Shown here in pieces: positions 47,380 through 52,136 of a stretch of 64,000 nucleotides of DNA; the stretch's first letter is position 1, and each line of letters opens with the position of its first letter. A program made the position numbers and the translations under genes. Origin of the DNA: Dehalococcoidia bacterium (lineage in GTDB: Bacteria > Chloroflexota > Dehalococcoidia > Plut-88900); the NCBI GenBank assembly GCA_965197585.1, contig OZ240215.1:64001-128000 (forward strand), read 5' to 3'. Below the pieces are notes generated by a model. The model saw nothing but the letters and a program-made list of their open reading frames with translations. It ran no database searches and was not told the origin of the DNA.

Positions 47380-48435
47380 TGTAAGTGTTAGGTAATTCGT
47401 TGACAGATTGGTATAAGAGGCCAACACCAATCTGGAGGCGAGAATGCGAGACAATAGCAAGGACCTCACCCTTGAACGTAACTACATTCAGAAGTGGCGG
47501 TTCCTCATCCATGAGTATCAACTGGTCAAGGCAGGGAAGCATCCCCGTTTCCGCTTCGCCCAGGACTTCTACTCCTTCCACGGCACTAGCCGTCAGACCT
47601 TTGCCAAGTACTACAACCGGTTCCTCCTCTCCCCCTCCGACAACGCCTTCCTCCCCCGTAAGCGGGGTCCCGGGTGGAAGTCCCGCCGCACCCTGCCCTA
47701 CATTGAGCAGAAGGTCATCAACGAGCGCCTTAACGGTACCAACCGTTACGAGATCTATGCCATACTCAAACCCATCCTTAAACACAACACCCCTAAGCCC
47801 TCCACCATCTACGCCATCACCAGACGCCACGGTTTCAATAGGCTCACAAAGCCGATGCAGCAGTCGAAGCGCAAGATCATCAAGACCCGGGCAGGAGAGC
47901 TGGGCCACCTGGACAGCCACTACCTCAGCCGGGATACCATCGTGGGCACCAAGCACCGCTACTACCTGGTGGGCCTCATCGACGCCTACACCCGTCTGGC
48001 CTGGGCCGAAGTGGTCGGAGACATCAAGAGTCTCTCCGTTATGTTTGCTACTCTGAAGTCCATCAATTTCCTTAACGTGGAGTACGGCATCCAATTCGAG
48101 GCCATCCTCACCGACAACGGCCCCGAGATGGCCTCCCCAAGGAACACCGAGGGCCACCCCATGGAACGGATGCTCAATGAGCTGGGCATAAAGCACCGCT
48201 ACACCCGCCCTTATAGGCCCCAGACCAACGGGAAGATAGAGCGGTTCTGGAGAACCTTGAACGAGGACCTGCTGGAGGGGACAACCTTCGAATCGGTCTC
48301 GGAACTGAAGGACGAGCTTCAGCAATACCTGATCTACTACAATACTCAGAGACCCCACCAGGCAATGGACGGAAAGACCCCTTTGGAGACCCTTAAATCC
48401 ACCTAATTCTGTCAACGAATTACCTGACATCCACA
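47380..48435 (+). mobile_element. IS481-family insertion sequence, 1056 bp, apparently intact
   Basis: 28-bp imperfect terminal inverted repeats with TGT ends (24/28 match), 5-bp direct repeat ATTCC at 47375-47379 and 48436-48440. Confidence 0.92.
47444..48406 (+). CDS. IS481-family DDE transposase (integrase core)
   Basis: GELGHLD, LTDNGPE, TRPYRPQTNGKIERFWRTL, YN..RPH. Confidence 0.95.
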   Translation: MRDNSKDLTLERNYIQKWRFLIHEYQLVKAGKHPRFRFAQDFYSFHGTSRQTFAKYYNRFLLSPSDNAFLPRKRGPGWKSRRTLPYIEQKVINERLNGTNRYEIYAILKPILKHNTPKPSTIYAITRRHGFNRLTKPMQQSKRKIIKTRAGELGHLDSHYLSRDTIVGTKHRYYLVGLIDAYTRLAWAEVVGDIKSLSVMFATLKSINFLNVEYGIQFEAILTDNGPEMASPRNTEGHPMERMLNELGIKHRYTRPYRPQTNGKIERFWRTLNEDLLEGTTFESVSELKDELQQYLIYYNTQRPHQAMDGKTPLETLKST

Positions 48436-50177: not shown

Positions 50178-50317
50178 ATGGGAGAACCCCCGAAAAATCA
50201 GATGAGAAGCGATGGAATCTTATCACAACCTCACTCCCTAGGGGGGAGCCTGCCCGCCTTCGGCGAATCATTCCCGCACCCTATCGGGAATCCATCCCAC
50301 TCCCCCCAGTACTGAAT

Positions 50318-50358
50318 TAGAGGCCCATGTGCGTGCCTTGCACGCACATGGGCCTCTA
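50318..50358. repeat. Perfect 19-bp inverted repeat
   Basis: TAGAGGCCCATGTGCGTGC-CTT-GCACGCACATGGGCCTCTA. Confidence 0.85.
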
Positions 50359-50467
50359 TTCTTATCTCCCCCTCTCCCTTAATGGCCCTAAGGGAGAGGG
50401 GGACCAAGGGGGTGAGGGTTCCCCGGTGAGGCCGGGGCGATGTCCCCCTAAAAGTGACACGAACCCC

Positions 50468-50497
50468 TTGACTCGAGCCGTACACATGTACTATATT
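50468..50497 (+). promoter_or_regulatory. Sigma70-type promoter with LexA-like operator in the spacer
   Basis: TTGACT-N18-TATATT with GTAC-ACAT-GTAC at 50480-50491. Confidence 0.5.
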
Positions 50498-50711
50498 CAC
50501 CCCCGATTGGCCCATCACTCACCCTAAACCCAAGGAGGAACCACAACCCAGGGGGGAACCCCAGCCCCGGCCCCGAGGACTCAACGTCCCAGCCCATCCC
50601 AAAGGGCGGCCCACACGCCGCCCCACGGCTCAAGCGAAAGCGGAACGTCCGCCTACGGAGGACCGCCATCTCCTCATACCAAAGGCCCCGGCTCTCCCTT
50701 CCCCCGCAACC

Positions 50712-51111
50712 CAGGCGATGGAAGGTCCCACAGACTTGTTCGGCAGGCCCCGTCCAACGACGCCCCTGCCGATTCAACGCTTACCGTCATTGGAAGCCGT
50801 TTACCCCGGCCCATTGCGTGCCGGTTTCCCCGGCAGGTCAACCGACCCCCGGTTTAGCAAGGCCCTCGTGCCTTGTTTGTCCCGCCGTCCCTGCCACCCG
50901 TCTACCCGGCGGATGGACCGGGACGCCGGTTATGAAAGTCCGCCTCAGGCGGCATCTTCCCCGTCAGCGGTCCGGTCAAGTGCCGCTGACGGTGGGATCG
51001 GCCCCACACAACCCTGACCGCAGCCGACAACATGTGGGGATAATCCAGCCCGGCGCCGACGGCACGGCAACCCCCGGCCTGGTTTCTAGTCACCGGACCC
51101 TCCATCGCCTG
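50712..51111. ncRNA. Candidate large structured non-coding RNA, family unassigned
   Basis: 17-bp closing stem (50712-50728 / 51095-51111) enclosing about nine hairpins and a 6-bp loop-loop complementarity; no credible ORF. Confidence 0.5.
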
Positions 51112-51281
51112 CCCCTCCAAAACACACATAAACCCACAAACCCCACCCACAATCGAAGATGGAACATCCGCCTCTGGAGGATCCGCCTCAGGAGGACTCA
51201 ATGTCCCCGGACGCTGGCAGACATGCCCCCCCGCTTGCGTGATACACTTCTCGTGACCCAGTCCCCCACCCCGAGGCCCTG

Positions 51282-52136
51282 ATGGAAGACTCGCAACCCG
51301 GCGCACCCAAAAGCGCTTTCGCCCAACTGATGGCCCCTCCTCACCGGGACATCGATCTGTCTCGTGCGGCCCTCCTGATTGCCCAGGGGGAATACCCTGA
51401 CCTGGACATACCCTACTATCTGCATATTCTGGAGCGCCTCGGGCGGAGAGTTCGGTCCCGCTCCAAGGATGCATCGCCCAAGGCCGCCATTGAAGCCCTA
51501 AACCGCGTATTGTTTGAAGAGGAGGACTTCCGGGGCAACGAGGAAGAGTACTACGACCCCCGCAACAGCTATCTCAACGAAGTGATCGATAGGCGAATCG
51601 GCATCCCCATCACCCTCTCGGTCGTATATATCGAGGTCGCCCGGCACGCGGGCATCGAGATAAAAGGGGTCGGGTTTCCGGGCCACTTCATCGTCAAGCA
51701 CGAAAGTGAGGACGGCCCGATCTACATCGACCCCTTCTATAAGGGCCTGATACTCGATACGGAACACCTTGCCCAGAGGCTCCGCCTCACGGGTGGCGGA
51801 TTCATGCCCTTCCGGGAGCATCACTTGGCCGCATGTACAGAGGCCCAGCTCGTCACCCGGATGCTGAACAACCTCAAGGGCATACACGCCTCCCGACGCG
51901 ACTACGGAAAAGCCCTCACGGTCATCGAAATGATGATCGATGTATCGCCCTGGGACCTCGACGAGGTTAGAGACCGGGGCAAAGTGCGTCTCCAGCTGAA
52001 GGACTATTCCATGGCCCTAGTAGACCTGGAGACTTACCTCAACTTCCGCCCAGATGCCGAAGACGCCGAGGTCATAGGAAGAAGCGTGCAATATCTAAAG
52101 GGCCTGGCTCCCAGGGGCCCCGCCAAGGAGTTTTGA
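51282..52136 (+). CDS. SirB1/YchA-like transglutaminase-core plus TPR protein
   Basis: FRGN...YYDPRNSYLNEV, GIPITLS, GFPGHF, IDPF, RMLNNLK, RDRG. Confidence 0.9.
   Translation: MEDSQPGAPKSAFAQLMAPPHRDIDLSRAALLIAQGEYPDLDIPYYLHILERLGRRVRSRSKDASPKAAIEALNRVLFEEEDFRGNEEEYYDPRNSYLNEVIDRRIGIPITLSVVYIEVARHAGIEIKGVGFPGHFIVKHESEDGPIYIDPFYKGLILDTEHLAQRLRLTGGGFMPFREHHLAACTEAQLVTRMLNNLKGIHASRRDYGKALTVIEMMIDVSPWDLDEVRDRGKVRLQLKDYSMALVDLETYLNFRPDAEDAEVIGRSVQYLKGLAPRGPAKEF

What the first reader, a model, noticed from the sequence alone, without database searches (positions are those of the whole stretch)
50712..51111. ~400-nt closed multi-hairpin element: candidate novel large ncRNA
Seen: ends pair over 17 bp (CAGGCGATGGAAGGTCC / GGACCCTCCATCGCCTG, one A-C that is G-U on the minus strand). 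Inside are consecutive helices: 50740-50772, 50796-50810, 50819-50835, 50858-50875, 50886-50925, 50940-50952, 50961-50992 (10 bp perfect), 51002-51039, 51045-51082. The loop CGGTCA (50973-50978) is complementary to TGACCG (51015-51020), a possible kissing or pseudoknot contact. G-U wobbles and purine-rich loops (GGAAA, GGGUAAA) favour a minus-strand RNA, yet the only clear promoter is on the plus strand. It lacks the signatures of RNase P, tmRNA, SRP or 6S RNA and is single-copy in the window, unlike the REP-type repeats.
Basis: partly seen in the sequence, partly recalled or inferred. Interest (0 to 1): 0.8.

Follow-up and report, generated by a model that had tools for sequence, protein, structure and literature searches.

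The report
Structured core of promoter-homing transposon
The 400-base hairpin-rich stretch is the non-coding inner part of one old copy of a small mobile DNA element that occurs about fifty times per genome in one genus of sponge-associated Dehalococcoidia, carries its own promoter, and, where its ends are intact, sits exactly five bases in front of host gene promoters.

Summary
The structure is real: a 17-bp closing stem, a fold far below shuffled controls (z about -6 on both strands) and no Rfam match. It is not a single-copy RNA gene. The stretch 50712-51111 is the variable inner domain of a ~760-nt repeat unit (window ~50441-51201). The unit has a conserved sigma-70 promoter on the + strand, a ~200-nt conserved structured leader, the closed domain and a C/A-rich tail.

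This genome holds 54 such units. All 8 other species of the genus have them. None was found in 145 other genomes of the class.

Intact family members (739-885 bp) have imperfect ~27-bp terminal inverted repeats with TG...CA tips and 5-bp target duplications. One orthologous empty site is clean.

Three features go beyond an ordinary MITE. The internal promoter is kept in 135 of 140 units. Leader and inner domain show compensatory base-pair changes. Insertions lie 5 bp upstream of a host TTGAC -35 box (T24, T23, G24 of 29 ends), pointing at the gene.

The window copy has lost its ends but is orthologous in three sister species. Transcription, the mobilising transposase and the RNA's role remain inferred.

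The parts
50268..50440 (.). Hairpin module of a separate repeat family, with two perfect palindromes at 50318-50358 and 50367-50403. It abuts the unit here and in several other copies. It is also present at the orthologous locus of G008, which lacks the unit.
   Evidence: I1 and I3, 100% complementary; query 2769-3225 matches contiguously at other loci.
50454..50467 (+). GTGACACGAACCCC, the inner remnant of the family's left terminal repeat, directly before the -35 box. The outer part of the repeat (TGATCCCGTTCACATAGAG) is missing in this copy.
   Evidence: (0 matches to the left-end 19-mer in the window at up to 3 mismatches).
50468..50497 (+). Sigma-70-type promoter TTGACT-18 nt-TATATT, conserved across the family.
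   Evidence: 10 of 12 matches. TTGACN plus TAnnnT at 16-19 nt spacing in 135 of 140 units from nine genomes.
50504..50711 (+). Conserved C-rich leader. It holds AAGGAGGAACC (50532-50542), nested long-range helices (5' arm 50549-50558 with 3' arm 50696-50705), GAGGACTCAACG (50575-50586), CCCATCCCAA (50593-50602), a covarying hairpin (50604-50623) and CGCCATCTCCTC (50664-50675). The start at 50504 is inferred from the -10 box.
   Evidence: 11 of 33 pairs with compensatory change against 6.9 +/- 1.1 in shuffles.
50641..50662 (+). A 22-nt mini-hairpin insertion (CGGAACGTCCGCC...GGAGGA type), present in 2 of 7 aligned copies. Related motifs lie at 50934-50952 and 51162-51195.
   Evidence: (family D1), (the 19-22-nt block is absent from 7 of 28 copies).
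50712..51111 (+). The reported element: the variable, closed, multi-hairpin inner domain. Its closing stem is 50712-50728 with 51095-51111.
51112..51201 (+). C/A-rich, G-poor tail (to about 51160) followed by two small hairpin motifs (51161-51201). Similarity to other copies ends here. No right terminal repeat is left in this copy.
   Evidence: (0 matches to the right-end 16-mer in the window at up to 3 mismatches).
51282..52136 (+). Downstream, co-directional host gene (transglutaminase-like core plus TPR).
   Evidence: (PF13369, 1.2e-49; PF13371, 1.3e-17).

Best explanation
Window 50712-51111 is the variable, highly base-paired inner domain of one old, end-decayed copy of a non-autonomous DNA transposon family. 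The family is MITE-like but larger: 739-885 bp when intact.

An intact element reads as follows:
- a left terminal repeat, 5'-TGATCCCGTTCACATAGAGGGGTGACA;
- directly after it, a sigma-70 promoter;
- a ~200-nt conserved, structured, C-rich leader;
- a 330-530-nt domain closed by the conserved helix GGCGATGGA/TCCATCGCC, whose interior differs between subfamilies;
- a C/A-rich tail;
- a right terminal repeat, TGTCAC...CGAACGAGTACA-3'.

Shown: the termini are TG...CA; insertion duplicates 5 bp; insertions sit immediately upstream of a host -35 box (TTGAC, followed by a -10), with the element's promoter pointing at the host gene.

Inferred: a DDE (rve-type) transposase supplied in trans moves it. 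The resident IS481-like IS is a candidate only. Also inferred: the element is transcribed from its own promoter through leader and domain, and possibly on into the downstream gene, so that host genes acquire a second upstream promoter and a long structured 5' RNA. The 17-bp stem could be a processing site, but this is not tested.

The window copy has been kept at the same locus in at least four species.
For: Copy number and extent:
- six other full-length copies at 89-93% and one at about 80%.
- similarity runs from about 50441 to about 51201.
- 54 units in G000.
- BLAST matches in 8 of 8 other species of the genus and 0 of 32 genomes outside it.
- the leader covariance model hits 5 of 5 genus genomes and 0 of 145 others in the class.

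Transposon hallmarks:
- 18 left and 23 right terminal-repeat hits, giving 11 ordinary complete pairs of 739-885 bp plus one 2,076-bp pair interrupted by an unrelated IS.
- the 5-bp flanks are identical in 5 of 11 complete elements and match 4 of 5 in 3 of 11.
- G001 has TTTCG|764-bp element|TTTCG where G000 has a single TTTCG.
- of 41 flank-mapped rows, 12 are empty-sized in G000 and 23 occupied-sized.

Target:
- in 29 non-redundant right-end flanks, positions +6 to +10 read T24, T23, G24, A18, C18.
- TTG occurs in 17 of 29 (background 1.3%).
- TAnnnT lies 16-19 nt further on in 25 of 29, against 2.4% of random positions.
- the downstream gene is co-directional in 43 of 54 units and the upstream gene in 21 of 54.

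Non-coding:
- ORFs from the stem ATG range from 3 to 173 aa in family copies.
- gap runs in the alignment are mostly 1 or 2 nt.

Promoter and RNA:
- promoter present in 135 of 140 units.
- domain, 98.1% of cells paired; 20 doubly changed cells against 6.7 +/- 1.9 in shuffles (0 of 500 shuffles as high).
- leader, 11 of 33 pairs compensatory (2 of 500 shuffles as high).
- 53 domains fall in 11 sequence clusters. All 11 representatives fold below shuffles (z -2.9 to -11.2) and all are closed by the terminal stem.
- contigs of RNA libraries from 3 of the 4 laid runs span about 50664-51050.

Orthology:
- the unit is present at the same locus in G005 (94%), G002 and G001 (82%).
Against: - The window copy itself has neither terminal repeat nor a recognisable target duplication. 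Its membership rests on homology of promoter, leader, domain and tail.
- Its 400-nt subfamily mostly has a different left junction (GGGG..CCCC..AAAAG hairpin module). How that subfamily spread is unresolved.
- No autonomous element with matching ends was found in G000 or in the loci held.
- The IS481-like IS has only 18 of 28 matching positions in its terminal repeat, and in the window it uses a different target.
- Only 13 of 53 G000 units keep a left repeat and 23 of 53 a right repeat.
- One species-pair presence/absence (G005 against G000) is not a clean insertion.
- Transcription is not proven. Contigs carry no strand, start or end, and DNA carry-over is possible.
- The element is two to three times longer than classical MITEs.
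- Conservation of the promoter and of pairing is more than a purely selfish non-autonomous element needs.
Confidence: 0.8

Rival explanations
1. The RNA is the point and the transposon only its vehicle. In this reading the promoter-driven leader plus closed domain is a functional RNA of a new class. It might help the element find or use sigma-70 promoters, control transposition, or act in trans on the host.
For: The promoter is kept in 135 of 140 units. Leader sequence is about 70-85% identical across species whose flanking genes are about 77-80% identical. Compensatory changes occur in the leader and the domain. All 11 domain clusters are strongly folded and closed by the same helix although their interiors differ. 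Non-autonomous elements normally need only their ends.
Against: No known DDE/rve transposon needs an RNA (recalled, not tested). Both strands fold equally well. The covariation controls are imperfect for related copies. No trans target or partner protein was identified. RNA evidence is limited to unstranded contigs.
Confidence: 0.25
2. Host-domesticated promoter and 5' leader cassette. Copies persist because they drive or tune the downstream gene, through a second promoter, a long structured 5' UTR, an RNase III processing site or Rho-dependent attenuation in the C-rich tail.
For: The downstream gene is co-directional in 43 of 54 units, at a median of 138 nt. No intrinsic terminator lies at the unit's end. 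The window unit is retained at the same locus in four species. One locus is occupied in G000 and in two distant species (rows L121 and L133).
Against: The orientation bias is already explained by oriented insertion next to -35 boxes. Downstream genes are functionally diverse in the 20 of 43 scanned: transglutaminase-like, MMPL, MFS, SdhA-like, deformylase, amidohydrolases, arginase, ZnuA, SulP and others. Twelve of 41 mapped loci are empty in G000, so turnover is common. No contig bridges the unit and the gene (weak).
Confidence: 0.3
3. The pairing matters at the DNA level, not as RNA. Examples would be hairpins in single-stranded or cruciform DNA used during transposition or replication, or transposase or host-factor binding sites.
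For: Fifty-six consensus pairs are shared by both strands, and the minus-strand consensus fold is at least as stable (-145.9 against -111.7 kcal/mol). In the leader, A-C cells (52) outnumber G-U cells (31). G-U pairs therefore give no plus-strand RNA signal.
Against: No Y1/HUH transposase of the kind that acts on single-stranded hairpins is present: PF01797 gives 0 matches in G000 while the control genomes ring. The promoter is conserved upstream of the structure. The ends are of the DDE TG...CA type with 5-bp duplications, and such transposases act on duplex ends (recalled).
Confidence: 0.15
4. One reading: a single-copy, novel, large ncRNA gene, probably on the minus strand.
For: Strong fold, no Rfam match, one copy in the window.
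Against: There are 54 family units in the genome, with terminal repeats and target duplications in intact members. No conserved minus-strand promoter was seen, whereas the + strand promoter is conserved.
Confidence: 0.03

Closest known systems
QMITE1 of Coxiella burnetii (PMC5896051; abstract and outline seen)
   Same: A non-autonomous element with about 50 copies per genome. It carries sigma-70 promoters, is transcriptionally active, is a source of small RNAs, is conserved between strains, and is thought to influence neighbouring genes.
   Different: QMITE1 is 300-400 bp with 2-3-nt direct repeats and often overlaps ORFs. The present family is 739-885 bp with 5-bp duplications and lies in intergenic DNA (1 of 54 units overlaps a called gene). 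It has a conserved leader plus a variable closed domain, and it inserts 5 bp upstream of -35 boxes. The abstract reports no such target preference for QMITE1.
Neisseria Correia elements (CREE) and REP2 repeats (Delihas 2011, PMC3184786; passages seen)
   Same: Dispersed repeats that carry promoter sequences, often lie 5' of genes, are transcribed and fold into stable RNA structures. REP2 also carries a ribosome-binding site, and the leader here holds AAGGAGG.
   Different: Correia elements are much shorter and fold as one long hairpin (size recalled). REP2 has no terminal repeats. Neither is described in the passages read as homing to the -35 box or as having a modular leader with an exchangeable closed domain.
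IMU, the integron mobilization unit (Delihas 2011, PMC3184786; passage seen)
   Same: A MITE mobilised in trans by a transposase, with a 5-bp target duplication and terminal repeats resembling those of a resident IS.
   Different: The IMU repeats are almost identical to ISSod9. Here the best candidate IS matches only 18 of 28 positions. IMU carries no promoter or RNA cargo.
IS481-family insertion sequences
   Same: The resident IS (window 47380-48435) has an rve/rve_3 transposase whose best NCBIfam match is IS481 (184 bits). It has TGT termini and a 5-bp duplication, ATTCC. The element's right end (as reverse complement, TGTAC...) and its 5-bp duplication are of the same style, and both repeats hold a (G/T)TGACA motif about 20 nt inside.
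   Different: The element encodes no transposase. The NCBIfam score is below the curated cut-off of 224. Repeat similarity is moderate. In the window the IS sits in a REP-like hairpin, not next to a -35 box.
Large structured bacterial ncRNAs (OLE, GOLLD, ROOL, HEARO/omega RNA; names recalled)
   Same: Several hundred nucleotides, many helices, closed by long-range pairing. HEARO/omega RNAs are also multicopy and linked to transposons.
   Different: No Rfam model matches. No TnpB/IscB or Y1 transposase context is present (one search covers Y1 only). The element has DDE-style ends and target duplications.

Membership tests
MITE / non-autonomous DDE transposon | Terminal inverted repeats at the element's ends | tested here: met
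   Family level: 11 complete elements with TGATCCCGTTCAC... and ...CGAACGAGTACA ends; 18 of 27 positions are shared between the two ends. The window copy has none (0 matches at up to 3 mismatches).
MITE / non-autonomous DDE transposon | Target-site duplication, and an empty site in a relative | tested here: met
   The 5-bp flanks are identical in 5 of 11 complete elements and match 4 of 5 in 3 of 11. The G001 occupied site has TTTCG on both sides where the G000 empty site has one TTTCG. Not testable for the window copy.
MITE / non-autonomous DDE transposon | No transposase gene inside; many dispersed copies | tested here: met
   No conserved ORF. There are 54 units in G000. The one rve ORF found inside an element belongs to an unrelated, separately bounded IS.
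MITE / non-autonomous DDE transposon | Small size (generally under 200 bp, some about 400 bp; Delihas 2011 passage) | tested here: not met
   Intact elements are 739-885 bp. I therefore write 'MITE-like', not MITE in the strict sense.
MITE / non-autonomous DDE transposon | An identified autonomous partner with matching ends | tested here: inconclusive
   None with matching ends in G000 or in the held loci. The IS481-like IS has about 19 near-identical copies but matches only 18 of 28 positions.
Known RNA families (Rfam 15) | Covariance-model match at gathering score | tested here: not met
   only a tRNA in the window; no match at E<=10 inside 50441-51201.
REP / REPIN / BIME with RAYT | Short palindromic units and a Y1 (RAYT/IS200-type) transposase in the genome | tested here: not met
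   PF01797 gives 0 matches in G000 (92% complete), while 6 of 14 control genomes ring. The unit is about 760 nt and asymmetric.
Riboswitch-type cis-regulatory leader | A conserved aptamer upstream of functionally related genes | tested here: not met
   The downstream genes scanned (20 of 43 co-directional ones) fall in many unrelated Pfam families. Nine are Amidohydro_2-type paralogues by BLAST.
Promoter-bearing, transcribed MITEs (Correia, QMITE1 type) | An internal sigma-70 promoter with transcripts from it | tested here: inconclusive
   Promoter consensus in 135 of 140 units. Contigs of RNA libraries cover leader and domain, but without strand or 5' end.

The most novel reading that the evidence does not exclude
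A new kind of bacterial mobile element that homes, in one orientation and at a fixed 5-bp distance, to the -35 box of host sigma-70 promoters. In this reading its conserved, promoter-driven, modular structured RNA (conserved leader plus exchangeable closed domain) is a working part of its life cycle. The RNA could take part in promoter recognition, in control of transposition, or in re-wiring the expression of about 50 host operons per genome.
Probability: 0.2. Interest if true: 0.85.

Novelty: new variant of a known kind. Interest (0 to 1): 0.6.

Why it matters
The result removes a false lead: this is not a single-copy giant ncRNA. In its place is a concrete, testable object, a genus-wide family taking about 1% of each genome.

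The family combines four things that I found together in none of the papers I searched (listings only, apart from the two papers read):
- DDE-style ends;
- an internal strong promoter;
- a conserved structured leader with an exchangeable, closed, highly folded domain;
- precise, oriented insertion next to -35 boxes.

If the targeting is mechanistic, it would be a bacterial counterpart of promoter-directed integration known from eukaryotic elements (recalled). It would also be a natural system that places promoters in front of promoters. That is relevant to how uncultured sponge symbionts rewire gene expression.

For annotation, these units should be masked or labelled as repeats before any search for ncRNAs in these MAGs.

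Tried and rejected
- Protein coding. The ATG inside the closing stem opens frames of very unequal length in family copies, and close copies differ by frameshifts. Gap runs in the 28-copy alignment are 1 nt (145), 2 nt (24), 3 nt (13), 22, 29 and 57 nt. Rejected.
- The 17-bp stem as terminal repeat of a nested MITE. No target duplication flanks it. Its flanks are conserved and asymmetric. A large subfamily has only the 9-bp core GGCGATGGA/TCCATCGCC. Rejected.
- An 'autonomous' pair at G000 146920-149848. This is a chance match around amidase and SDR-like genes.
- G000 659304-661379 (2,076 bp) as the autonomous element. The 423-aa rve ORF belongs to a separately bounded, single-copy IS inserted just behind the left repeat. 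Rejected.
- A second IS (about 1.26 kb, 2 copies). Its ends are unrelated.
- RAYT/IS200 mobilisation. No PF01797 match.
- Helix GGAGG (leader) with CCTCC (after the closing stem), suggested by the MFE. CCTCC is present within 14 nt in only 49 of 140 units. It is not a family feature.
- Kissing loop: see the observation check.
- Strand from G-U pairs: not informative.
- RNAalifold on a plain MAFFT alignment of 126 leaders gave a poor consensus. I used a representative's MFE mapped onto a 47-sequence alignment instead.
- RNA cover. No contig of the four laid runs covers 50206-50473, and none bridges the unit and the downstream gene. Contigs cannot show absence, so I draw nothing from this.
- The G005/G000 presence-absence at G000 1494599-1494889 is not a clean insertion.
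- Supplements of papers were not consulted. They may hold lists of repeats that bear on novelty.
- Crude gene calls come from my own codon-usage script, not from a validated gene finder. The orientation counts depend on them.
- The genome search scored at most 13-40 candidates per genome, so its match numbers are not copy numbers.
Full report
THE OBSERVATION. The reported stretch is as described. Arms 50712-50728 and 51095-51111 pair over 17 nt with one mismatch. The 400 nt fold far better than dinucleotide shuffles on both strands. On the + strand the MFE is -191.0 against -153.9 +/- 6.1 kcal/mol (z -6.06). On the - strand it is -219.5 against -181.2 +/- 5.8 (z -6.65). In each case 0 of 100 shuffles fold as well. 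Rfam gives nothing. At gathering score the window holds only a tRNA. At E<=10, all 24 weak matches in 50200-51600 lie in the palindromes at 50200-50421. A good + strand promoter, TTGACT-18-TATATT, lies at 50468-50497.

IT IS NOT SINGLE-COPY, AND THE UNIT IS LONGER. The assembly is one 3.43-Mb contig with 59% G+C. BLAST of the 400 nt against it finds six further full-length copies at 89-93% identity and one at about 80%. Aligning copies with their flanks shows that similarity starts at about 50441, just before the promoter, and ends at about 51155-51201.

A much larger set shares four things: the promoter module, a ~200-nt leader, the core of the closing helix (GGCGATGGA ... TCCATCGCC) and a C/A-rich tail. 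The interiors of 330-530 nt differ. Using leader motifs as anchors I count 54 units in this genome. Their 53 closed domains fall into 11 sequence clusters of 11, 8, 7, 6, 6, 6, 5, 1, 1, 1 and 1 members. Every cluster representative folds below its shuffles (z -2.9 to -11.2, 12 shuffles each), and in every one the MFE is closed by the terminal helix.

DISTRIBUTION. BLAST with the unit hits 8 of 8 other species of the genus. It hits 0 of 3 other genera of the family and 0 of 29 other families of the class. A covariance model of the leader hits 5 of 5 genus genomes searched and 0 of 145 other genomes of the class, which span 109 other genera. All 80 listed rows are records titled 'MAG: Dehalococcoidia bacterium' from eight isolates. 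RNA libraries that hold parts of the unit are sponge metatranscriptomes.

IT IS A TRANSPOSABLE ELEMENT. Comparing a G001 unit with its orthologous G000 site exposed the true ends. G001 reads ...TTTCG|TGATCTCGTTCAG ... CGAACGAGTGCA|TTTCG... around a 764-bp element. G000 has a single TTTCG at the same place.

Scanning G000 for these ends gives 18 left and 23 right hits. They form 11 ordinary complete pairs of 739-885 bp plus one 2,076-bp pair interrupted by an unrelated IS. The termini are TG...CA. The two ends are imperfect inverted repeats of about 27 nt, sharing 18 of 27 positions. The 5 bp on either side are identical in 5 of 11 complete elements, match 4 of 5 in 3 of 11, and match less in the remaining 3. 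The closest pair of complete copies is 96% identical. By contrast, the roughly 19 near-identical copies of the resident IS481-like IS are 98-100% identical, so the family is not very recently active here.

I mapped the flanks of 80 units from other species to G000, which gave 41 rows. One row is G000 itself and one locus appears twice. Twelve rows have an empty-sized gap (under 600 bp), 23 an occupied-sized gap (1,000-1,420 bp) and 6 a larger gap. Units are therefore gained and lost between species.

The left repeat runs straight into the -35 box (...GGGGTGACA(T/C)CACCCCCTTGAC). The GTGACACGAACCCC in front of the window's promoter (50454-50467) is thus a remnant of that repeat. The window holds no match to the outer left or right end at up to 3 mismatches. 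In G000 only 13 of 53 units keep a recognisable left repeat and 23 of 53 a right repeat.

The window copy is an old member. The same unit lies between the same genes in G005 (94% identity), G002 and G001 (82%). G008 has only 356 bp there, holding the hairpin module but no unit. G003 has 3.5 kb of other DNA.

TARGET. The flanks of the right end are striking. Thirty-six strictly defined right ends (G000 plus loci of other species) reduce to 29 after removing flanks at least 75% alike. In these 29, the bases after the 5-bp duplication read T24, T23, G24, A18, C18. TTG occurs in 17 of 29 against a background of 1.3% per position. TTGAC occurs in 8 of 29 against 0.087%. A TAnnnT lies 16-19 nt further on in 25 of 29, against 2.4% of random genome positions. 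A looser set of 55 flanks gave the same picture, with no such signal at 11 other offsets.

The empty G000 site shows that TTGACA-N18-TAAGAT belongs to the host. The element therefore inserts exactly 5 bp upstream of a host sigma-70 promoter, with its own promoter pointing the same way.

This accounts for the orientation bias measured with my crude gene calls. The downstream gene is co-directional in 43 of 54 units and the upstream gene in 21 of 54. The median distance to the downstream gene is 138 nt, and 1 of 54 units overlaps a called gene.

Downstream genes are diverse. I scanned 20 of the 43 co-directional ones. They include a transglutaminase-like/TPR protein (the window's), MMPL, two MFS transporters, an SdhA-like flavoprotein, peptide deformylase, Amidohydro_1, arginase, a CoA ligase, LutB, FAD synthetase, ZnuA, SulP and five Amidohydro_2 proteins. 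Nine downstream proteins are paralogues of one another by BLAST.

IS THE INSIDE MORE THAN FILLER? It is not coding. The promoter (TTGACN, 16-19 nt, TAnnnT) is present in 135 of 140 units from nine genomes and ends a median of 33 nt before AAGGAGG.

In a plain MAFFT alignment of 47 diverse leaders I applied the nested helices taken from one representative's MFE. They are paired in 87.2% of cells. Eleven of 33 pairs show compensatory change, against 6.9 +/- 1.1 in shuffles (2 of 500 as high). There are 43 doubly changed cells against 22.7 +/- 3.2 (0 of 500). Sliding the partners by 1-3 columns gives at most 5 such pairs.

In 28 copies of the window's own subfamily, from five genomes, the RNAalifold consensus has 101 pairs and 98.1% of cells paired. 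Five pairs show compensatory change, for example U-A in 15 copies and C-G in 10 at columns 71/83. There are 20 doubly changed cells against 6.7 +/- 1.9 (0 of 500).

These controls overstate significance for related copies, so I rate this as moderate support for selection on pairing. The strand cannot be read from wobble pairs. The + strand assignment rests on the promoter.

Contigs of RNA libraries from three of the four laid runs (X1, X2, X7; two studies) span about 50664-51050, and X6 covers only 50666-50728. Most differ from the window by 5-15%, so they come from paralogous copies or relatives. They carry no strand.

WHO MOVES IT? G000 has no Y1 transposase. I found no longer element with the family ends. 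The 2,076-bp pair at 659304-661379 is an element hit by an unrelated single-copy rve IS.

The abundant IS at window 47380-48435 encodes an rve/rve_3 transposase whose best NCBIfam match is IS481, below the cut-off. It makes a 5-bp duplication (ATTCC) and has TGT tips and a TTGACA motif about 20 nt inside its repeats. It matches the element's right repeat at 18 of 28 positions, and several of its copies lie next to units (one search compared). It is a candidate helper and no more.

Both element repeats hold GTGACA at the same inner position. A transposase domain that reads (G/T)TGACA in the ends might also dock on a -35 box. This is my inference.

VERDICT. The finding is a real, strongly folded non-coding region, but it is the inner domain of a decayed copy of a genus-specific, promoter-carrying, promoter-homing, MITE-like transposon.

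Known relatives in kind are promoter-bearing, transcribed MITEs: Coxiella QMITE1 (PMC5896051, abstract) and the Correia and REP2 repeats (PMC3184786, passages). The differences are the size, the modular conserved RNA part and the precise -35-directed insertion. I found no description of that combination in four literature searches (only titles and abstract starts seen, apart from the two papers named).

The role of the RNA, transcription itself and the transposase remain to be shown.

Noticed in passing
window 47380-48435: A complete IS481-like insertion sequence of 1,056 bp. It has one 320-aa rve/rve_3 transposase, terminal repeats TGTAAGTGTTAGGTAATTCGTTGACAGA, and a 5-bp duplication ATTCC. 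It is inserted into a REP-like motif, GTCATTCC|GATGCCCCGCGAGGAA. About 19 copies at 98-100% protein identity occur in the genome, and many copies at 83-98% DNA identity in sister species. Several lie next to the units.
   Followed up: partly
window 50268-50440: A separate repeat family (hairpin module) with two perfect palindromes, of 19-bp and 15-bp stems. It occurs at many loci in all species checked, often directly upstream of the units. At the orthologous G008 locus it is present without the unit.
   Followed up: partly
window 50641-50662, 50934-50952, 51162-51195: A 19-22-nt mini-hairpin motif (GAA(A/C)(G/A)TCCGCC-NNN-GG(A/C)GG). It is present or absent between otherwise near-identical copies: in the leader of 2 of 7 copies and in the domain of 21 of 28. 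It looks like a tiny insertion-prone repeat of its own.
   Followed up: no
G000:C1:659338-660633 (outside the window; L204): A single-copy IS of about 1.3 kb with a 423-aa rve transposase. Each end carries two copies of the motif GACCTCA(A/T)AATTG..GGTTACCG. It is inserted just behind the left repeat of a family element.
   Followed up: partly
G000:C1:2983346-2984137 and 2803582-2804373 (outside the window): Two copies (98% identical) of another IS of about 1.26 kb, with ends TGTA(T/C)AGACCGGGGACAT(A/G)GGTAACA. One copy lies beside a family unit.
   Followed up: partly
G000 genome-wide: About a dozen loci share only the promoter module GTGACACGAACCCCTTGAC-N17-TACTATATT and then continue with unrelated sequence, for example CAGGC soon after the -10 box. 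The promoter/left-end module therefore also occurs with other cargos.
   Followed up: no
G000 downstream genes: Nine of the genes directly downstream of units are paralogous Amidohydro_2-type proteins of about 360-450 aa. I did not test whether this exceeds the family's share of the genome.
   Followed up: no
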